Source of the DNA: a virus
Length of the DNA stretch: 8,054 nt
Reading direction: 5' to 3' (one strand)
UHGV virus genome: UHGV-0324772
In this document: positions 1-8,054 of the stretch, one piece after another
Layout of the letters: each line of letters starts with the position of its first letter
Numbering within the stretch: the first letter of the stretch is position 1
Program-made: the position numbers and the translations under genes
The notes under the pieces: model-generated
The model's database searches: none
The model's input: only the letters and a program-made list of their open reading frames with translations
What the model was told of the DNA's origin: nothing

Positions 1-156
1 CAGAGCATCAACATTTAAGACACCTGTCTTATAGACCTGAGCCTGTGTTTTTTTCGCGGTGTCGATTTGTACAGCGGAAACATAAACCGCTTTACCTACG
101 CTCGAACCATCCCATACCACCAGTGCACCTGTTGCATCTTCTGGCAATACGGCTCT
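1..156 (-). CDS. Head decoration protein gpD-like fragment (partial; runs off the window start, N-terminal side closed by an in-frame stop at 157-159)
   Basis: Minus-strand frame open from 156 to 1 translates to LPEDATGALVVWDGSSVGKAVYVSAVQIDTAKKTQAQVYKTGVLNVDAL, which aligns by eye with lambda gpD ([36 protein letters not shown]...). No ATG start; not in the ORF track because it is partial. Confidence 0.35.
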
Positions 157-286
157 TCAGGGGATTGTAGACTATGGCGGTATTCAGGATCCGGAGCTAA
201 TCCGAATGGGGCTGACTAAAGCCGAACTTGCACCGAAAAACTATATTGTGCCTGGTGATCCGGCTATTGAATATGTGCAGACACAT

Positions 287-1051
287 TCAGCACCACAGCC
301 AATACCGGCCCGCATCAATCGAATCACCAAGGTCTTTAAGAGCCGTTTCCAGTTCGGAATTAGAACCACGACGGGTATCCAGAGCCTCTTTTATCGCTCT
401 GAATGAACGGTATTTCTTCCATACATTACCGCCCATAATGATGATATTAGTGACGCCCTCACTAAATTCTGCGTAGCTCTCAATATCATCATTTGGATCA
501 AAAGTTTCTTTATCCTTACCTGACCACTCAGCACCGCCAGACTGAGTGATGATATTTTGTGGTTTAATATTCCAGTCCAGCTCATAACGTTCAATACCAT
601 CGCCCTCAATGATATTTTTCCCCGTTGTGATTGCCTGAACGGCAAGCCATTCAATACGTGCACGAATAGCTTTAGCCTGATTTACAATCGCCTGTTTAAC
701 TTTAATATTACGCGCTCCAAAAGCATTGTATTGCTCAGGTGATACACCAGCAGGGCGCACAGCTAACTTATTTGGATCAATGCTGCTTTTCGGCTTCATA
801 TAGCCTGGACGAATTGTTTTTGATTCGTACCCTTCGTCACGTGAAACTTTACTACCCACCATAGGAGAACAAAACGCTGCAATTGGGATATTTGGATCGT
901 CGATTGTATCAAGAATAATATCGCGCGATTCAAACATTACCGAGCGAGTAAAAAACAAACTGGTAAACAACGCATTTAGTTGTTTTTGTACATCTACAGC
1001 ATTAACCACCTGTACAAGCTGGGTAGGCGAATATAAATCAACCATACGCAT
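287..1051 (-). CDS. Lambda gpE-like major capsid protein, C-terminally truncated (about 255 aa versus about 341 aa in lambda)
   Basis: Track ORF 287..1219. Residues from MRMVDLYSPTQLV onward align along the length with lambda gpE as I recall it (LFFTRS/LFFRES, PGYMKPK/PGYVKPK, ITQSGGAEWS/ITQSGGTEWS, DTRRGSNSELETALKDLG near-identical). Start set at ATG 1045 or 1051, with AAGAGG 6 nt upstream of 1045; the 58 upstream codons look like a stop-less extension. ORF stops at 287-289 right after the KDLG motif, so about 90 C-terminal residues are absent. Confidence 0.8.
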   Translation of the reverse strand: MRMVDLYSPTQLVQVVNAVDVQKQLNALFTSLFFTRSVMFESRDIILDTIDDPNIPIAAFCSPMVGSKVSRDEGYESKTIRPGYMKPKSSIDPNKLAVRPAGVSPEQYNAFGARNIKVKQAIVNQAKAIRARIEWLAVQAITTGKNIIEGDGIERYELDWNIKPQNIITQSGGAEWSGKDKETFDPNDDIESYAEFSEGVTNIIIMGGNVWKKYRSFRAIKEALDTRRGSNSELETALKDLGDSIDAGRYWLWC

Positions 1052-2000: not shown

Positions 2001-2228
2001 TTCACCTGTTCACCTTTTGATATTTTCTCTTTTAATTCATAATGTTAATGGGTGAACAGTTTCACAAAAACTATTCACCAACTGTTCACCACTGTTCACC
2101 CTTGAAGCTCAATAAACAATCAAAAAGGTGAACAGTGAATAGTTTGGTGAACAGTTCATAAATAACTGTTCACCCTATAATATACTGATATAAAAGATAT
2201 TTATGACAGGGTGAACAGTGGTGAACAG
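2001..2228. repeat. P4-type type-I iteron cluster (TGTTCACC), putative cis replication region / origin bound by alpha protein
   Basis: Nine perfect octamers: TGTTCACC at 2007, 2083, 2093, 2167 and the complement GGTGAACA at 2051, 2127, 2146, 2210, 2220, plus degenerate copies (2001-2006, 2072-2079). An AT-rich stretch lies at 2176-2205. Sits immediately downstream of the alpha gene end, as crr does in P4. Confidence 0.8.
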
Positions 2229-2241
2229 TTATTCCATAAGT

Positions 2242-2686
2242 TTAATTTTTGCTATCGTCATTAGTGACCGATACACATGATGGCATCCAGTCTTCTGATT
2301 CCTCCGTCAGTGTCACGTTTGAACGCAAACCGTGCTTCGTTTTCCGTTTCATATACTCCCTGCCATATTCCGCCATTGCCCCCGGCATATCTTTACCGAA
2401 GCGCGTCAGTGTTACAGGTTTACCAAACCCATGTGCCCTCATATAAGCCAGATAGGCATGATAGAGATACCTGCGTGGGCTGAATGGCACAATTTCAGCA
2501 TTACCCACTAACAGGCCATCACACATTACCGATGCCATGAGATAGCCGCAGAAGTCCACCAGCGAATCCCCCTCTCGCTTTATCGCCAGTGCTTCTTCAG
2601 ATTTCTGCTGCTCATATAACAGGCGTCTGGCTTCGTCCTGATCAGCAAACCGTGTAAGCAGATGGCGAATCACTACCGCCAGCTCA
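2242..2686 (-). CDS. P4 alpha-type primase/helicase, C-terminal region (fragment; track ORF 2242..2673 with GTG start)
   Basis: Translation ELAVVIRHLLTRFADQDEARRLLYEQQ... continues the helicase-domain end seen on the other strand at 2976-3013. Frame is open upstream to a stop at 2707-2709. Ends at stop 2242-2244 next to the iterons. Confidence 0.65.
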
Positions 2687-2687
2687 A

Positions 2688-3015
2688 GTGGTTGGCTTTT
2701 CGCTGATTATCATGCCGGATATGACCCGCTACGCTGGTGATGGGGCAGGGATTAAGGCCATTACAGGCGGTGACAAGGTGGCAATTGACCCGAAACACAA
2801 AGCCCCCTATTCAACGCGTATTCCGGCAGTAGTGCTGGCGGTTAACAATAACGCCATGTCATTCAGTGACCGCAGCGGGGGGATCTCACGTCGTCGGGTG
2901 ATATTCAATTTTTCGGAAGTTGTACCGGAGAACGAACGCGATTCGATGCTGGCGGAAAAAATAGAAGGTGAGCTGGCGGTAGTGATTCGTCATCTGCTTA
3001 CACGGTTTGTTTTTT
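2688..3015 (+). CDS. P4 alpha-type helicase-domain fragment on the opposite strand to the rest of alpha (probable misassembly or inversion)
   Basis: Track ORF 2688..3017. ITGGDKVAIDPKHKAPYSTRIPAVVLAVNNNAMSFSDRSGGISRRRVIFNFSEVVPENERDSMLAEKIEGELAVVIRHLLTRF matches the region after Walker B in P4/D5-type helicases. Its 3' end (2976-3013) is the reverse complement of 2649-2686 with one mismatch. The stop codon is formed partly by adapter bases. Confidence 0.6.
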
Positions 3016-3073
3016 AATGATACGGCGACCACCGAGATCTACACTCTTTCCCTACACGACGCTCTTCCGATCT
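3016..3073 (+). other. Illumina TruSeq universal (P5) adapter, 58 nt, exact: sequencing/assembly artefact
   Basis: AATGATACGGCGACCACCGAGATCTACACTCTTTCCCTACACGACGCTCTTCCGATCT read directly at 3016-3073, preceded by TTTTT (3011-3015). Confidence 0.97.
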
Positions 3074-4064
3074 ACCAGCAGAGGGGGATTCGCTGGATGA
3101 ATAACTGCCAGTCGTACCGGTTCGCCAGCACCATGAATAATGCCGCCAGTACGCGATCTGCCTTGCGGTCATTCTCAGCCACCGAACGGCGCAACCACTT
3201 CCAGAAATTCGGCGCATGTGTTGCCAGCGTTTCCCCCTCTGCTGGTGGGCTGAAAGGTAATTCACTGGCAATTAACAACCAGTCGTTTTTGTTATGCTCC
3301 CGAAAATTACCAGTTCTGGTATCAAATACCCCGTTACTGAATCCAATCAGGTTACGGGCTGTATTCCCCATTACAGGCAAACTTAACTTCATGGTATCTA
3401 CCGCCGATTTAATAGCGTTCTGCGAATAGCTGATCTCCGCATCAATGAAAATCTGCGCCATAGCACGCTGTAACTCTTTATCCTGAACCGGCTCCCATAC
3501 AACGCCGTTGTAATGATGAACGGTGTCAGAGTCGGCATTGATTGCCAGTTCGCCGCCGTAATGTGCAAGGAGAACTTCACCGCGCTGGCTGGCCCCCATC
3601 TGATTCAACGCCAAAGATGAAGCACGCTCGTCATTTTTGCGCTCTGCCTTCTTCACTGGCAGTTCAATCACCAGACTTTCCCCATGCTCCGCTTCAGCTT
3701 TTAGGCCGACAAGGCGCGGAGTCCAGTCTTCAGGCTCTCGATCAACAAAGCTACGGTAACAACGTGCTTCCTTTACGCCTGCAATAGCAAGTAATGTCGC
3801 AACCTTCGTCAGACTTTTCTCTGCAATCTTTCCGGCACGATAAACACGCACATAATGACGGCCTTCATCGATAATTTGCATATCATCCAGGTTTTCCAGT
3901 TGTTCCGTACCCAGAATGACTGGTGGTGTATCATCTGCTGCAATATGCTTACCTGCCCATTCATTCCATTCTTTTGCATGGCTCCAGGCATCACTGCCAG
4001 CAAAAATGATGACTTCCGTCATTTTGTCGCGCGGTTGGTATTTTAAGTTCGGAGCACGTTTCAT
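3072..4064 (-). CDS. P4 alpha-type primase/helicase, N-terminal primase region (reading frame cut off at the adapter junction)
   Basis: Track ORF, 330 aa. Call rests on continuity with the alpha helicase and C-terminal fragments, position in the operon and the adjacent P4-type iterons; an early EVIIFAGSDAW segment is primase-like but not a confident motif match. The terminal stop (3072-3074) is created by adapter bases, so the real protein continues. GGAGG RBS 6 nt upstream; start overlaps the upstream stop (ATGA at 4061-4064). Confidence 0.75.
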   Translation of the reverse strand: MKRAPNLKYQPRDKMTEVIIFAGSDAWSHAKEWNEWAGKHIAADDTPPVILGTEQLENLDDMQIIDEGRHYVRVYRAGKIAEKSLTKVATLLAIAGVKEARCYRSFVDREPEDWTPRLVGLKAEAEHGESLVIELPVKKAERKNDERASSLALNQMGASQRGEVLLAHYGGELAINADSDTVHHYNGVVWEPVQDKELQRAMAQIFIDAEISYSQNAIKSAVDTMKLSLPVMGNTARNLIGFSNGVFDTRTGNFREHNKNDWLLIASELPFSPPAEGETLATHAPNFWKWLRRSVAENDRKADRVLAALFMVLANRYDWQLFIQRIPLCW

Positions 4065-4348
4065 TTGTTACCTCCGGCAACTAACATTGCCCGAATTTTA
4101 CGGATATAGCCTGCGGCACGCCTCTGATTATCTGTCTTGCAATTTTTTACCAGAATGAAATCTCTTTCGAACTGCTGACGCGGCATAACACATTCAAAAT
4201 CATAACCATCACGCAAATAAGAGACACGACGATCATCAACCGAAATAATCTTTACCCGATAGCCATAGCTGTCTTTGAAAATATCCCCAAGGCTGATTTT
4301 TGAATGAGTTTGACCGCTGGCAATAAAGCCAGAAAATTTATTTTTCAT
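4061..4348 (-). CDS. Hypothetical small protein (95 aa), alpha-operon member
   Basis: Track ORF; same strand; stop overlaps the alpha start codon (translational coupling). No motif recognised. Confidence 0.5.
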   Translation of the reverse strand: MKNKFSGFIASGQTHSKISLGDIFKDSYGYRVKIISVDDRRVSYLRDGYDFECVMPRQQFERDFILVKNCKTDNQRRAAGYIRKIRAMLVAGGNK

Positions 4349-4351
4349 TTT

Positions 4352-4576
4352 TTATTCTCCGGTATAGCTCTGGTCGTGTATTTTTATAGCTTCATCCAGC
4401 TCTTTGATGACAGGATCAAGTAACGTAATTAACGCTCCAGCTAAATTAGCATCCCGTTCATCGTGTTCCGCATTTGTTGTCCCATCAAGCCAGGTTGATA
4501 AGATTTCTCGCATATTTTTGCCACAAACGAGCGCGTTTTCAGCATGTGTCAGCACTTTAAAATAAAGATCATTCAT
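4352..4576 (-). CDS. Hypothetical small protein (74 aa), alpha-operon member
   Basis: Track ORF; start overlaps the upstream ORF end by 8 nt; acidic, helical-looking sequence. Confidence 0.45.
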   Translation of the reverse strand: MNDLYFKVLTHAENALVCGKNMREILSTWLDGTTNAEHDERDANLAGALITLLDPVIKELDEAIKIHDQSYTGE

Positions 4577-4934
4577 GGCACACCTCCTGACGAATACGGG
4601 CGGCGAATATCATCACGTAGCCAGTTGGGGATTGCAGCCGGGCTTCCTGTTCGCTGGCGGCCTCGATGTGTATTACGCGTGGTTGTGCGGTGCTCAGGGC
4701 GATAAAACGCCAGATGAAATTGTTTTCGCATTTCTGAATAAACAGCGTGTTTTCTTCACGCCCTTTCCAGAAAGCCGCAGTATAGCCCATCTCCTTAACC
4801 ATCTTGCGGGCATCAACCAGCGTGTCAGCGGCTACATGTACCGTAGTTGCTCCATCTGCCATGCGGTCGTGGTGTAGTGCCAGAAAGGTGTATATAAATT
4901 TAGGGTGAGTTTGGGTATGCTGTGTTCCAGCCAT
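4569..4934 (-). CDS. Hypothetical protein (121 aa), first gene of the alpha operon
   Basis: Track ORF; GAGG 8 nt upstream of ATG 4934; sits downstream of the predicted minus-strand promoter. Confidence 0.5.
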   Translation of the reverse strand: MAGTQHTQTHPKFIYTFLALHHDRMADGATTVHVAADTLVDARKMVKEMGYTAAFWKGREENTLFIQKCENNFIWRFIALSTAQPRVIHIEAASEQEARLQSPTGYVMIFAARIRQEVCHE

Positions 4935-4996
4935 AATCGTTACCTCATTTAACGGGTTGGTTAGACGCCTCGATGGTGTTCCCGCACGTCGAGGCG

Positions 4997-5076
4997 TTGC
5001 ATTTTCCTAAACACGTATGTAATGTGTCATCACACATTAACACATTACATCGGGTGTAATTGACGTGTCAACACAC
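4997..5076. promoter_or_regulatory. Divergent promoter region with repeated operator-like half-sites (ACACATTA / TGTAATGT)
   Basis: Plus strand: TTGCAT (4997-5002), 17 nt, TAATGT (5020-5025). Minus strand: TTGACA (complement of 5066-5071), 18 nt, TAATGT (complement of 5042-5047). Inverted repeat atgtaatgtgt (5017-5027) / acacattacat (5040-5050), plus acacatta (5032-5039) and gtgtaatt (5054-5061). Confidence 0.4.
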
Positions 5077-5244
5077 AAAAATCAAAGACGTGGTAATCCT
5101 CCGTTCCAGTTTCGGTTAGATCCTGAGTTGAGGGAGTTGATGGAGCAAGCACAGCAAGTAGATGGAGACGAATCTTTAGCAGCCTGGATTAAAAGGATTA
5201 TTCGCAAAGAACTACAGCAACGCGGATATGAAGTCAAAATTTAA
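5065..5244 (+). CDS. Small ribbon-helix-helix (Arc/CopG-like) putative transcriptional regulator; start uncertain (GTG 5065 or ATG 5140)
   Basis: Below the track's length cut-off. Frame open from 5041 to TAA at 5242-5244. Translation ...PPFQFRLDPELRELMEQAQQVDGDESLAAWIKRIIRKELQQRGYEVKI has a beta-strand then two helices, as in RHH proteins. Divergent from the alpha operon, convergent with the TIR-like gene. Confidence 0.4.
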   Translation: MSTHKNQRRGNPPFQFRLDPELRELMEQAQQVDGDESLAAWIKRIIRKELQQRGYEVKI

Positions 5245-5257
5245 CAGATAATATTTC

Positions 5258-5290
5258 ATATAGAGCCATTTATCTCGAATGGCTCTATAT
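5258..5290. terminator. Perfect 13-bp stem hairpin between convergent genes (putative bidirectional terminator)
   Basis: atatagagccatt (5258-5270), loop tatctcg, aatggctctatat (5278-5290); followed on plus by gattttta. Lies between the RHH stop (5244) and the TIR-like stop (5320). Confidence 0.55.
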
Positions 5291-5319
5291 CTATGCAGAT
5301 TTTTAGTTCAAAGAATTTA

Positions 5320-6195
5320 CTAAACTGCGTAACCAGTAGCTCGCAAGTCTTTAATAATGCTATATGCTACTTCTTCAATAGAAGAATTGAATTTTTTATA
5401 AATAAGACCATTCAAATCACTTGGAATCACTACATCACCTGTGTATAGACAACAAACCTTAGAACGACCTAATTTCCCTACGAAATAACCAAATTCAAAC
5501 ATTACATTTGGTCGTGCACGTAACTCCTTTTCTCTTTCATTATCAGGTAAAGAGTCTTGCGGCAATAAATAAGCGATCTCATCAGGTGTGAGAAGAATGA
5601 ATGCGAAACCAACATCACTATTTGCTTCAAATTTCTCAATCACTGTCTGGCCTACATCAGCTTGCCTATGGAGAACAATAGGTTCTAAGCCAATTTCTCT
5701 TAAAAACACCTCTAAGTTGGTTTTTGATATTTCATCTCTTCCATGAACAATGAATACTTTTTTGGTTTTTACCGCTGAACTCTGAGGTACTTCAATATTT
5801 TCTTCAACAACTTTGGAAGATATAGGAATTAACTCCAGTCGCTCCATAATCGACTCTAGTTTTCTTATCTTACTCTGGAGTTTACGCGTAGCCTCACTGA
5901 TTTTTTCTCCCAAGGAAGTCTCGTACAATGAAATAACACCAAATGCCCCACCTTCATATTCTTCTTTGAAATCATCATTTGTGAAACTACGCTTCAGTAG
6001 CTCAGCATTAAAATCACTCCATTTCCTGTAATCAGCATTAAACAGCTCCAAGTCACTATTGTTATTTATGCTTTTCTGTAGGAGTAATAATCCTTTTTGA
6101 ATTCTGTCTTGAATTTTATCTTTCATATCATCTCTTGATATGATTAGTTCACAAACAGTTTTCATTTCTACGCTATTTTTTTTTCGAGTAGCCAT
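5320..6195 (-). CDS. TIR-like (COG4271/PF10137-type) domain protein with an unassigned N-terminal domain; candidate anti-phage NADase effector
   Basis: Track ORF, 291 aa. Residues about 145-291 carry the pattern I associate with TIR-like nucleotide-binding proteins: KKVFIVHGRD, GLEPIVLHRQ, TVIEKFE, VGFAFILLTPDE, RARPNVMFEFGYFVGKLGR, IPSDLNGLIY. N-terminal about 140 aa is helical with no TM segment or known motif. Good RBS (AAGGGTG, 5 nt, ATG). Visibly AT-rich compared with flanks. Confidence 0.7.
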   Translation of the reverse strand: MATRKKNSVEMKTVCELIISRDDMKDKIQDRIQKGLLLLQKSINNNSDLELFNADYRKWSDFNAELLKRSFTNDDFKEEYEGGAFGVISLYETSLGEKISEATRKLQSKIRKLESIMERLELIPISSKVVEENIEVPQSSAVKTKKVFIVHGRDEISKTNLEVFLREIGLEPIVLHRQADVGQTVIEKFEANSDVGFAFILLTPDEIAYLLPQDSLPDNEREKELRARPNVMFEFGYFVGKLGRSKVCCLYTGDVVIPSDLNGLIYKKFNSSIEEVAYSIIKDLRATGYAV

Positions 6196-6231
6196 GCTTA
6201 CACCCTTTTATATAACAATTTACTACAACAT

Positions 6232-6459
6232 TTATGTCCGCCATTCCCCCCTAATCCATGCCTGAACTTCGGAGAGACGGTAAGCTACCGCAGTAGCGCC
6301 AATCTTGATCCGCTTAGGAAATTTTCCTTCCTTCTCCAGCTTCCAGCGTGTGCTGTTCGCAAGAGTGGTTAGCTCCCGACATTCTTTCTCACGGATCATA
6401 CGATCAATGTTAGGAATGTACTCCAGACCCTTTTTATCAACAATTGCCATTTTTTTCAT
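6232..6459 (-). CDS. alpA: AlpA/Vis-family small DNA-binding regulator or excisionase-like protein
   Basis: 75 aa; the central segment resembles AlpA-family (PF05930-type) prophage regulators; lies 1 nt downstream of the integrase stop on the same strand. Confidence 0.7.
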   Translation of the reverse strand: MKKMAIVDKKGLEYIPNIDRMIREKECRELTTLANSTRWKLEKEGKFPKRIKIGATAVAYRLSEVQAWIRGEWRT

Positions 6460-6460
6460 G

Positions 6461-7696
6461 TTAACCAGCCTTTTGTTTGAGGATTGTCACTTTTGAATCA
6501 GCACCTGCGATGCTATTGAGATATGTAGTCCAGAGTTCCAGAGCATCCAGTTTTTTAGCCATAAACTTACTCCGATTGTAAACACCTGCCACGCCAGGTA
6601 GCGCATGGCCTAACAGTTGTTCTACTACATAAAATTCAACACCGAGATCACTTAGATGAGTAGATAGCGTTCTTCTAAGGTCGTGTAGTGACCATTGTTT
6701 TTCATGGCCCAAACGTTTACCGATTTTCCCCCCAATCTTGCTTACGCTTTCTCTAATTCGCAGACTTCCCAGCACATAACCAGTATGTTTTGTCTCTTCG
6801 TGAACATCCGTTACCCACTGTCGTAGAATTTCAGGTACTGGTCTGACGATTTCAACACCAGTTTTTGAGTGATCTTTTGGTACAGTCCAAACCCAACTTT
6901 CGAGATCCCATTCGCTCCATTCTGATAATCGGGCTTCACTCATTCGACATCCAAATACTGTACAAAGCACAAACATTTTTCGCGTGTATTCAGACATTAG
7001 TTTTAAATCAGGCTCGACAAAAATTGCCTTCCAGAGCTGGCCGAGTTCGGCTTCATCCAGAACCCGATCCCGCTTACCTGCAATCTGCCCCACATCACTC
7101 ATGCGCAAATCCTTTAAAGCATCACACGTCGCGTACTGGCGTACCCGACAAAAACGAAGAGCTAATTTAGTGTCAGAAAAAACATACGCCGCCATAACTG
7201 GTGCATTACGTTTAATTCGGTCAAAACAGTCCAGCCATTCATATAGGTGAGTGTCATTTACGGGCAAATGACCGATATAGGGAAAGATATGCTTTCGAAA
7301 TCTGCCAAGCGTTACAGCATGAGTTTTACGACGCACCTTACAGTAATTTTCATACCAGTAATTTAGTGCATCCTCCACTGTGACCGGCTTTAAGCGTTCT
7401 TCAGCCTGAATCTTAATCTGGATACGCGGATCACGTTTGTCAGCCAACCAACCACGGCACTCGTCGCGCTTTTCCCTTGCCTGTTTGAGTGACATATCAG
7501 GATATTTACCCAACGTTAGCCAGACCGGAGCAGCCCGGCCACCTGCTAACCTGTAGAAGAAAACAAAGCTCACAGCCCCTTTAGTACTCACACGAATAGA
7601 AAGCCCCTTTCCATCAGCAATGGTGATCTGCTTTTCTCTGGGTTTCCCCAGATATCCTTTAAGCGCTTTGTCGCTCAGTTTGTTCTCGCCAGCCAT
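6461..7696 (-). CDS. int: Tyrosine site-specific integrase, P4-like family
   Basis: Track ORF 6461..7747; likely start at ATG 7696 (MAGENKLSDKALKGYLGKP...ADGKGLSIRV resembles the P4-type N-terminal arm-binding domain). C-terminal catalytic signatures HDLRRT and LLGH...GVYNRS (Tyr). Confidence 0.9.
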   Translation of the reverse strand: MAGENKLSDKALKGYLGKPREKQITIADGKGLSIRVSTKGAVSFVFFYRLAGGRAAPVWLTLGKYPDMSLKQAREKRDECRGWLADKRDPRIQIKIQAEERLKPVTVEDALNYWYENYCKVRRKTHAVTLGRFRKHIFPYIGHLPVNDTHLYEWLDCFDRIKRNAPVMAAYVFSDTKLALRFCRVRQYATCDALKDLRMSDVGQIAGKRDRVLDEAELGQLWKAIFVEPDLKLMSEYTRKMFVLCTVFGCRMSEARLSEWSEWDLESWVWTVPKDHSKTGVEIVRPVPEILRQWVTDVHEETKHTGYVLGSLRIRESVSKIGGKIGKRLGHEKQWSLHDLRRTLSTHLSDLGVEFYVVEQLLGHALPGVAGVYNRSKFMAKKLDALELWTTYLNSIAGADSKVTILKQKAG

Positions 7697-7828
7697 TTTT
7701 AGCCCCAAAAAGCAATACAAGCTGCAATACAGAGATGATTGCAACACACAGATAACGAGGAAAATTCAGTGAAAGCGCCAGATAAACTTATTCTTTATTA
7801 TCAAAAGATTAAGTGTAAAAACCAGCAA

Positions 7829-8054
7829 CTACACGAAAGCCTCAGAAAGCCATGCTAAGTGCTTCGGCTTGACATATCCCGGTGTAAATTCAGAGGTGGA
7901 GCCGCCACGGGAGCGGATAACCTCACCGGAAACAATCGGCGAAACGTACAGCGCCATGTTTACCAGTCCCGGAATTTGTGAGAGATAGACTTTCTCCGTG
8001 GTGAAGGGATAGCTCTCACGGAAAAAGAGACGCAGAAACAGCGGATCAAACTTA
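7829..8054 (-). pseudogene. Lambda gpE (major capsid) N-terminal fragment, truncated; start lies beyond the window end
   Basis: Minus-strand translation from the window edge, KFDPLFLRLFFRESYPFTTEKVYLSQIPGLVNMALYVSPIVSGEVIRSRGGSTSEFTPGYVKPKH, matches lambda gpE residues about 17-82 as I recall them, then runs into 9 unrelated codons and a stop at 7829-7831. Confidence 0.7.

What the first reader, a model, noticed from the sequence alone, without database searches (positions are those of the whole stretch)
3016..3073. Exact Illumina TruSeq universal adapter embedded inside the alpha gene
The 58-nt string at 3016-3073 is identical to the TruSeq universal adapter, preceded by TTTTT, and it interrupts the alpha primase/helicase reading frame just before the expected Walker A region. 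This is a library artefact incorporated by the assembler, so the window is at least partly chimeric and the true alpha gene is probably intact in the organism.
Basis: partly seen in the sequence, partly recalled or inferred. Interest (0 to 1): 0.7.

Follow-up and report, generated by a model that had tools for sequence, protein, structure and literature searches.

The report
Sequencing adapter left in misassembled gene
A 58-base synthetic Illumina adapter sits inside a locally scrambled stretch of an E. coli phage-satellite replication gene; it is an assembly artefact, not biology, and the gene is most likely intact in the real organism.

Summary
Window 3016-3073 (+) matches the TruSeq universal adapter 58/58, preceded by six T (not five).

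It is an artefact. The adapter is absent from 5,426 complete E. coli genomes. In 86 of 87 public viral-contig occurrences with upstream bases it also follows a T run (mode T10). That fits a read running off a short insert into the flow-cell T spacer.

The window is not a chimera of unrelated genomes. Both flanks come from one E. coli locus, in the right order, 99.9-100% identical to strains E04 and W284. It is a helper-embedded PICI satellite lying in a lambda-like capsid gene.

The interrupted gene (pri, 606 aa, 51% identical to P4 alpha residues 323-771) lies on the minus strand. Codons 1-322 are at 3097-4064. The next 126 bp, with Walker A GPGGSGKS, are missing. Codons 366-472 are inverted at 2687-3009, which creates the apparent + strand "alpha" ORF. 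Codons 460-606 are at 2242-2686.

A second flipped piece (142-321) disrupts the capsid gene. No complete genome shares either flipped arrangement.

Best reading: a fragmented, untrimmed short-read assembly whose small pieces were mis-oriented and abutted. Biological interest is low; it matters only for quality control.

The parts
3016..3073 (+). Illumina TruSeq universal adapter, full length (58 nt)
   Evidence: 58/58 exact and unique in the window, 0 of 200 shuffles. Absent from 5,426 complete E. coli genomes except a 28-nt remnant in one.
3010..3015 (+). T6 run that belongs to the artefact (complement of the poly-A read after adapter read-through; flow-cell P5 oligo T spacer)
   Evidence: The native sequence here is CTGATC. 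In 86 of 87 IMG/VR occurrences of the adapter that have upstream bases, a T run directly precedes it, with mode T10. A published bridge-amplification study designed its surface-bound primer as 5'-T10-AATGATACGGCGACCACCGAGA.
3074..3096 (+). 23-nt 'insert' next to the adapter: inverted near-copy (21/23) of window 3224-3246, inside the same gene
   Evidence: the repeat finder pair I4. The best match in L001, L002 and L003 is 21/23 on the opposite strand. It does not match the native sequence expected at this position.
2687..3009 (+). Flipped 323-bp piece of pri (native codons 366-472, helicase motifs after Walker A). It makes the spurious + strand ORF 2688-3017, whose stop TAA is built from the T run plus the first adapter bases.
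   Evidence: Matches L001 4726-4404 on the opposite strand at 99.7%. Pfam DUF5906 and PPV_E1_C fragments. ORF ends ...HLLTRFVF*. One mismatch (2990) equals a natural allele seen in 12 genomes.
2646..2686 (.). 41-nt stretch present twice (forward here, inverted at 2969-3009): an overlap of two pieces that were not merged
   Evidence: the repeat finder pair I2, 98% complementary. The single difference is the 2665/2990 allele.
3097..4064 (-). pri codons 1-322 (N-terminal region plus D5_N domain), native and intact. The called ORF 3072-4064 gains 8 junk codons and a stop made at the adapter junction.
   Evidence: 100% identical to E04. Pfam D5_N 163-292. Tail ...YDWQLFIQRIPLCW*.
2242..2686 (-). 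pri codons 460-606 plus stop (C-terminal Pox_D5-like domain), native
   Evidence: Colinear with L002 3999-4443. Native-frame translation ELAVVIRHLLTRFADQDEAR....
142..321 (+). Second scrambled site: flipped 180-bp piece of the satellite's capsid gene, with 145 and 110 native bases missing on either side
   Evidence: Matches L001 1966-1787 on the opposite strand, with 2 mismatches at 169 and 171. No complete E. coli genome spans these junctions; best coverage is 69%.

Best explanation
The 58-mer, the six T before it and the 23 bases after it are not part of the organism's DNA.

The 87-nt block 3010-3096 has the form of the reverse complement of an Illumina read 2 from a very short (~23 bp) insert. 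Such a read covers the insert, then the complement of the universal adapter, then A's copied from the T spacer of the flow-cell oligo. Untrimmed reads of this kind were used in the assembly.

The surrounding sequence is a fragmented assembly of a real E. coli satellite locus. Its pieces were placed in the right order, but the small ones were put in the wrong orientation: 180 bp at 142-321, 323 bp at 2687-3009, and the 87-nt adapter block. All were butted together without gap characters.

As a result, 126 bp encoding the Walker A loop of the pri gene (a P4-alpha-like helicase) are missing, and the gene looks broken. In the organism it is most likely an intact 606-codon gene on the minus strand.

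Shown: the adapter identity, the T-run signature, the flips, the deletions, the preserved order, and the intact gene in relatives. Inferred: the read-through origin of the block, the scaffolding or gap-closing step, and the intactness of the gene in the source.
For: - **Adapter.** Exact 58/58 match with no chance expectation.
- **T run.** Across 92 exact occurrences in IMG/VR contigs, the adapter is preceded by a T run in 86 of the 87 that have upstream bases. The modal length is 10, and T6 followed by other sequence occurs 4 times. Eighty of the 92 lie within 18 nt of a contig end with the adapter's 5' end facing outwards. A T10 spacer in front of this very sequence is documented for a surface-bound bridge-amplification primer designed from the adapter.
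- **Absence from E. coli.** 5,426 complete genomes lack the adapter.
- **Same locus.** The window is colinear with E. coli chromosomes. Segments 1-141, 320-2686 and 3097-8054 are 99.96-100% identical to strain E04. Segments 142-321 and 2687-3009 match the opposite strand of the same locus, in their proper order.
- **Junctions.** No complete genome spans the flipped-segment arrangements (junctions 141/142 with 321/322, and 2686/2687); best coverage is 69% and 63%. Three of four junctions have no microhomology. A 41-nt overlap between neighbouring pieces was left unmerged.
- **Errors.** Mismatches are concentrated in the small pieces: 2/180, 1/323 and 2/23, against 1/7,466 elsewhere.
- **Native gene.** Relatives carry an intact 605-606 aa gene with D5_N, DUF5906 and Pox_D5 domains. 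All retained pieces are in frame.
- **Length.** The replaced stretch (410 nt) is nearly the same length as the native one (408 nt), as expected if a gap of estimated size was filled.
Against: - No reads are available, so coverage, soft-clipping and the assembly software cannot be checked.
- The source record was not found in any searchable collection.
- A join between genomic sequence and the outer T-run end of an adapter block is not produced by ordinary overlap assembly, so a separate abutting step has to be assumed.
- T6 is shorter than the modal T10.
- The 23-nt insert differs at 2 positions from its genomic source.
- The base at 2990 in the flipped piece is a natural allele different from the forward copy. 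This needs either a second allele in the sample or a lucky error.
- The missing 126 bp are single-copy in E. coli genomes, so a repeat does not explain why the assembly broke there.
Confidence: 0.9

Rival explanations
1. The inversions come from chimeric DNA molecules made before sequencing, not from scaffolding. Candidates are phi29 multiple displacement amplification or fold-back artefacts of library preparation, assembled at low coverage. The adapter is still contamination.
For: All rearrangements are inverted pieces with intervening deletions, within 127-325 bp of their partner. Lasken and Stockwell report that more than 85% of MDA chimeras have this form and are mostly intramolecular. Satellite DNA from virus-particle preparations is often amplified this way (my own knowledge).
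Against: Junction microhomology is 0, 2, 0 and 0 nt, whereas over 70% of MDA junctions show 2-21 nt. The flipped 323-bp piece carries a different allele from the forward copy it overlaps, so it is not a simple copy of the same molecule. The join of genomic sequence to the outer end of the T run cannot be a physical library molecule. The order of pieces is fully preserved, as for flipped contigs.
Confidence: 0.2
2. The window was scrambled or spiked in silico (a simulated or test sequence). A real E. coli locus was edited by flips, deletions, a few substitutions and an inserted adapter.
For: None of the artefactual ORF products or junction strings exists in the searched public collections. Three of four junctions are blunt. 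Substitutions are clustered in the rearranged pieces.
Against: The T run before the adapter reproduces a signature of real untrimmed data that a simple spike-in would not include. The substitution at 2990 is a natural allele. The 41-nt unmerged overlap and the near-equal length of the replaced stretch look like assembler behaviour. Absence from the collections is weak evidence, because most draft assemblies and private data are not covered.
Confidence: 0.06
3. The flips and deletions are real rearrangements in the source strain that inactivated pri and the capsid gene. The adapter merely marks a contig join at one breakpoint.
For: The pieces are near-perfect copies of native sequence. Satellites do decay in genomes: pseudogenes occur in relatives (a terminase small subunit with an internal stop).
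Against: None of 5,426 complete genomes has either rearrangement. Two independent in-place flips with flanking deletions in 8 kb, one of them ending exactly at a synthetic oligonucleotide, is very unlikely. Mismatches are enriched in exactly these pieces.
Confidence: 0.03
4. The adapter marks a join between two unrelated contigs from different genomes or loci, so one side of the window does not belong with the other.
For: Adapters normally sit at contig ends, so an internal adapter suggests that two ends were joined.
Against: Both sides map to the same locus of the same E. coli chromosomes, in the same order and orientation, 126 bp apart, at 99.9-100% identity.
Confidence: 0.01

Closest known systems
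Illumina TruSeq universal adapter contamination in assembled contigs
   Same: Identical 58-mer. A T run lies directly upstream, as in 86 of 87 IMG/VR occurrences that have upstream bases. The block is oriented with the adapter's 3' end towards real insert sequence.
   Different: Here it lies 3 kb inside the sequence. Only 3 of 92 IMG/VR occurrences are more than 1 kb from an end. Here it is also flanked on both sides by the same locus.
Adapter remnant inside fliI of RefSeq complete genome NZ_CP123349.1
   Same: The 3' 28 nt of the same adapter are embedded in a coding gene, which the annotation then calls 'frameshifted'. This is a spurious pseudogene of the same kind.
   Different: Only a 28-nt remnant, with no T run. 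I did not examine whether the neighbourhood is rearranged.
MDA-type inverted chimeras (Lasken and Stockwell 2007, PMC1855051)
   Same: Inverted pieces with intervening deletions, local to one molecule.
   Different: Almost no junction microhomology. There is an allele difference between the duplicated arms. There is no evidence that amplification was used.
P4 alpha primase/helicase and the Pri protein of gram-negative PICIs (the gene that is interrupted)
   Same: Native residues 149-596 are 51% identical to P4 alpha 323-771, including an identical Walker A GPGGSGKS. Pfam D5_N, DUF5906 (superfamily 3 helicase) and Pox_D5.
   Different: The protein is 606 aa, not 777. Its first 148 residues show no similarity to the alpha primase domain. 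The element is not P4.
Helper-embedded PICI '11capE', site E:Phage_cap_E:80 (PMC10111431)
   Same: An element of about 11 kb with int, alpA, pri and its own E-like capsid gene. It is inserted near codon 80 of a lambda-like major capsid gene, with a 10-bp identity block.
   Different: Nothing notable. This is the native context of the window and is not part of the artefact.

Membership tests
Illumina adapter contamination / read-through artefact | Exact identity to a synthetic adapter oligonucleotide | tested here: met
   58/58 and unique, with 0 of 200 shuffles. That the string is the TruSeq universal adapter rests on my own knowledge. Its P5 part is confirmed by the primer sequence in PMC11123353.
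Illumina adapter contamination / read-through artefact | Poly-T immediately 5' of the adapter (complement of poly-A read from the flow-cell spacer) | tested here: met
   T6 at 3010-3015 where the native sequence is CTGATC. The same signature is seen in 86 of 87 public occurrences.
Illumina adapter contamination / read-through artefact | Absent from the same locus in related genomes | tested here: met
   No full adapter in 5,426 complete E. coli genomes. Relatives have 408 native bases in place of window 2687-3096.
Illumina adapter contamination / read-through artefact | Coverage break or soft-clipped reads at the junctions | not testable with these tools
   No reads are available and the source record was not found.
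MDA-type inverted chimera | Inverted segment with intervening deletion, intramolecular | tested here: met
   Skips of 325, 292, 282 and 127 bp to the opposite strand.
MDA-type inverted chimera | Microhomology of 2-21 nt at most junctions | tested here: not met
   0, 2, 0 and 0 nt, against more than 70% of junctions.
P4 alpha-type primase/helicase | Superfamily 3 helicase core with Walker A, plus D5_N and a C-terminal DNA-binding domain | tested here: met
   Met for the native gene in relatives: Pfam hits and 51% identity to P4 alpha 323-771. In the window itself the Walker A segment is missing.
P4 alpha-type primase/helicase | N-terminal alpha primase domain (P4 alpha residues 1-322) | tested here: not met
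   No significant alignment of native residues 1-148 to P4 alpha, and no Pfam domain there.
Helper-embedded PICI (11capE type) | int-alpA-pri satellite inserted in codon ~80 of a lambda E homologue, with a 10-bp identity block | tested here: met
   Window 7860-8054 is 100% identical to lambda-type E. In L003 the E gene is split around a 10.9-kb island with a 10-bp overlap. This matches the description in PMC10111431.

The most novel reading that the evidence does not exclude
The two in-place flips with flanking deletions (142-321 and 2687-3009) are genuine rearrangements of the satellite in the source strain. On this reading, a helper-embedded PICI has lost both its helicase P-loop and its capsid gene through local inversion-deletion events, and only the 87-nt adapter block is artefactual.
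Probability: 0.03. Interest if true: 0.15.

Novelty: not a real feature. Interest (0 to 1): 0.06.

Why it matters
It matters only for data quality.

Taken at face value, the window suggests that the satellite's replication gene is split, that it lacks its ATP-binding loop, and that a 109-aa helicase fragment is encoded on the opposite strand. It also shows a truncated capsid gene. All of these are products of untrimmed reads and mis-joined pieces.

Any gene call, pseudogene call or structural-variant call in 142-321 and 2646-3100 should be discarded, and the record screened for adapters. The T-run-plus-adapter signature is a simple, specific flag for this class of artefact. It was seen in 86 of 87 public occurrences that have upstream bases.

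A RefSeq 'complete' genome carries a remnant of the same adapter in a 'frameshifted' fliI. This shows the problem reaches curated resources.

Tried and rejected
- **Finding the source record.** Exact look-ups of three artefact-specific ORF products found nothing: the 330-aa truncated Pri, the 252-aa truncated capsid and the 109-aa flipped fragment. Junction strings were absent from IMG/VR and from JGI metagenome contigs. Provenance stays unknown.
- **A repeat as the cause of the break.** The missing 126 bp are single-copy in nearly all genomes: median 1 place per genome, 537 genomes. Rejected at this sensitivity.
- **A general fold-back rule for internal adapters.** In IMG/VR contigs with sequence upstream of the T run, that sequence is not an inverted copy of the downstream insert. 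No general mechanism emerged.
- **Mates joined in raw orientation (e.g. unsplit SRA spots).** This fits the geometry of the inversions. It does not fit the join at 3009/3010, where the partner of a read-through read would have to start with the same short insert. Rejected as the sole cause.
- **A k=21 bubble as the origin of the 41-nt overlap (2k-1).** The variant lies at position 20/22 of the arm, not 21. Suggestive only, and not claimed.
- **Other adapter or primer sequences in the window** (TruSeq index adapter, P7, Nextera ME, small-RNA 3' adapter). None found within 25% mismatches.

Full report
**1. The observation**

Window 3016-3073 on the + strand reads AATGATACGGCGACCACCGAGATCTACACTCTTTCCCTACACGACGCTCTTCCGATCT. 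This is an exact 58/58 match to the string I know as the Illumina TruSeq universal adapter. It is the only match at up to three mismatches on either strand, and none occurred in 200 shuffles.

Six T (3010-3015), not five, precede it. No other Illumina or Nextera adapter fragment is present in the window.

**2. What surrounds it**

The whole window matches E. coli chromosomes colinearly. Coverage is 93%, at 100% identity to strain E04 and 99.9% to W284, GPEC709 and CD09. A direct blastn against the W284 locus (L001) breaks the window into these pieces:

| Window | L001 | Strand | Note |
|---|---|---|---|
| 1-141 | 1501-1641 | + | |
| 142-321 | 1966-1787 | opposite | flipped |
| 320-2686 | 2077-4444 | + | |
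| 2687-3009 | 4726-4404 | opposite | flipped |
| 3010-3096 | none | | no match |
| 3097-8054 | 4853-9810 | + | |

- The pieces are in their native order.
- Two small pieces (180 and 323 bp) are flipped in place.
- Native bases 1642-1786, 1967-2076 and 4727-4852 are missing.
- Native 4404-4444 is present twice, as a 41-nt inverted repeat at 2646-2686 and 2969-3009.
- The unmatched 87 nt consist of T6, the adapter, and 23 nt (3074-3096). Those 23 nt are a 21/23 inverted copy of window 3224-3246.
- No complete E. coli genome out of 5,426 spans the flipped-segment arrangements (junctions 141/142 with 321/322, and 2686/2687). Best coverage is 69% and 63%, i.e. one piece only.
- None contains the adapter, apart from a 28-nt remnant in one genome.

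**3. The gene that is hit**

In the relatives the gene is a 606-codon 'DNA primase family protein' (WP_000817024.1) on the minus strand. Its Pfam domains are D5_N (163-292), DUF5906, which is the P-loop part of a superfamily 3 helicase (326-434), and Pox_D5 (497-592). Residues 149-596 are 51% identical to residues 323-771 of P4 alpha, with the same Walker A GPGGSGKS. The first 148 residues are unrelated to the alpha primase domain.

In the window the gene is laid out as follows:

- Codons 1-322 lie at 3097-4064. They are followed by eight junk codons and a stop created at the adapter junction (...YDWQLFIQRIPLCW*).
- Codons 323-365, which include Walker A, are missing.
- Codons 366-472 are flipped at 2687-3009. 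There they form a spurious + strand ORF of 109 aa, whose TAA stop is built from the T run and the first two adapter bases.
- Codons 460-606 lie at 2242-2686.

But the '+ strand alpha frame' left of the adapter is itself an artefact.

All retained pieces are in frame, and relatives at 99.9-100% identity have the intact gene. The gene is thus most likely intact in the source. This last step is an inference.

**4. Why the T run matters**

I scanned IMG/VR for the exact 58-mer and found 92 occurrences in 91 stretches.

- In 86 of the 87 that have any upstream base, a T run directly precedes the adapter. The mode is T10 (22 cases), and 73 of the 92 have at least six T. T6 followed by other sequence occurs four times.
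- Eighty of the 92 lie within 18 nt of a contig end with the adapter's 5' end facing outwards. Only three lie more than 1 kb inside.
- A published bridge-amplification study designed its surface-bound primer from the adapter as 5'-T10-AATGATACGGCGACCACCGAGA-3', with the T10 added as a spacer (PMC11123353).

From established knowledge of the chemistry: a read 2 from an insert shorter than the read continues through the complement of the universal adapter and then copies the spacer as A's. On the opposite strand this gives T(n)+adapter+insert.

The 87-nt block 3010-3096 has exactly this form, with a ~23-nt insert. The T6 is therefore part of the artefact and a specific mark of untrimmed read-through data.

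**5. How the scramble most likely arose**

These observations point to pieces of a fragmented assembly that were ordered correctly, with the small ones mis-oriented, and abutted without gap characters by a scaffolding, gap-closing or contig-ordering step:

- The order of pieces is preserved and only small pieces are flipped.
- Three of four inversion junctions are blunt; microhomology is 0, 2, 0 and 0 nt.
- Neighbouring pieces overlap by 41 nt without having been merged.
- An adapter block has its outer end butted against genomic sequence.
- Mismatches are concentrated in the small pieces: 2/180, 1/323 and 2/23, against 1/7,466 elsewhere relative to E04.
- The replaced stretch is almost the native length, 410 versus 408 nt.

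The one mismatch in the flipped 323-bp piece (2990) is a natural allele, identical in 12 complete genomes. The forward copy of the same site (2665) has the E04 allele, and W284 has a single copy of this segment. So two alleles were probably present in the data, from a second satellite or strain. That could explain why the assembly broke there. The missing 126 bp themselves are not a repeat.

A rival source for the flips is chimeric DNA of the MDA type, meaning inverted segments with intervening deletions. It fits the geometry. It does not fit the lack of microhomology, the allele difference, or the join at the outer end of the T run. I give it about 0.2, as a variant of the same verdict.

I cannot exclude an in-silico scramble, because the source was not found anywhere. 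A real rearrangement, or a join of unrelated genomes, is very unlikely or refuted.

**6. Comparison with what is known**

Adapter contamination of assemblies is a well-known class of error.

The native locus is also known. It is a gram-negative PICI satellite of the helper-embedded type '11capE', inserted near codon 80 of the lambda-like capsid gene E of a prophage, with a 10-bp identity block (PMC10111431). I reproduced these features:

- Window 7860-8054 is 100% identical to lambda-type E.
- In strain MLI106K3 the E gene is split around a 10.9-kb island with a 10-bp overlap.
- The satellite's own capsid protein is 41% identical to lambda E.
- Upstream lie lambda-like terminase, W, portal, S49 protease and D.

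**7. Verdict**

It is wrong or incomplete on the extent of the damage, the strand, the kind of chimerism and the gene name.
- This is not a real biological feature.
- Interest is low: it is a quality-control flag for this record. The T-run-plus-adapter pattern is a useful screen.

Noticed in passing
window 7860-8054 (and L001 9615-11310; L003 1-708 and 11653-12323): [quoted passage not shown] The window end is 100% identical to lambda-type E. In L003 the E gene is split around a 10.9-kb island with a 10-bp overlap near codon 80. The satellite carries its own E-like capsid gene (41% identical protein). This matches the published helper-embedded PICI '11capE' (PMC10111431), so it is already known.
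   Followed up: yes
L100 (NZ_CP123349.1 702311-702338, E. coli AREA_R485, RefSeq complete genome): The 3' 28 nt of the same adapter (CTTTCCCTACACGACGCTCTTCCGATCT) lie inside fliI, which the record annotates as a frameshifted pseudogene. This is probably another adapter remnant creating a false pseudogene.
   Followed up: partly
window 142-321: A second scrambled site, unrelated to the adapter. A 180-bp piece of the satellite capsid gene is flipped in place, with 145 and 110 native bases missing on its sides and two C-to-A differences (169, 171) seen in no complete genome. It truncates the capsid ORF and removes the end of the decoration gene.
   Followed up: yes
window 2028-2243: A dense set of direct and inverted copies of GGTGAACAGT-like motifs lies just downstream of the pri stop codon. 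It looks like the iteron-type replication origin that gram-negative PICIs have downstream of pri (location as stated in PMC10111431). Not tested further.
   Followed up: no
window 7578-7586 (L002 9341-12040): Strain E04, otherwise 100% identical, has an ISCro1 (IS66 family) insertion in the satellite integrase gene at this point, with a 9-bp overlap of the flanking matches. The window has the uninterrupted integrase.
   Followed up: partly
window 5320-6195 (-): The satellite carries a TIR-domain gene (Pfam CAP12-PCTIR_TIR) in its variable zone. The related satellite in MLI106K3 carries other genes at the corresponding position (an unnamed protein, a SWIM zinc-finger protein and a HicB antitoxin). 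The exact TIR protein is listed in 2,464 blocks of the contig collection. It is a likely anti-phage cargo. Not examined.
   Followed up: no
L031 (about 10373), L092 (about 7655), L041 (about 14308) in IMG/VR: Three public viral contigs have the same adapter deep inside. In two of them, poly-A directly abuts the poly-T before the adapter. In L031 and L041, part of the sequence after the adapter repeats sequence lying within 400 nt upstream of it. These are likely further mis-joins in public contigs.
   Followed up: partly
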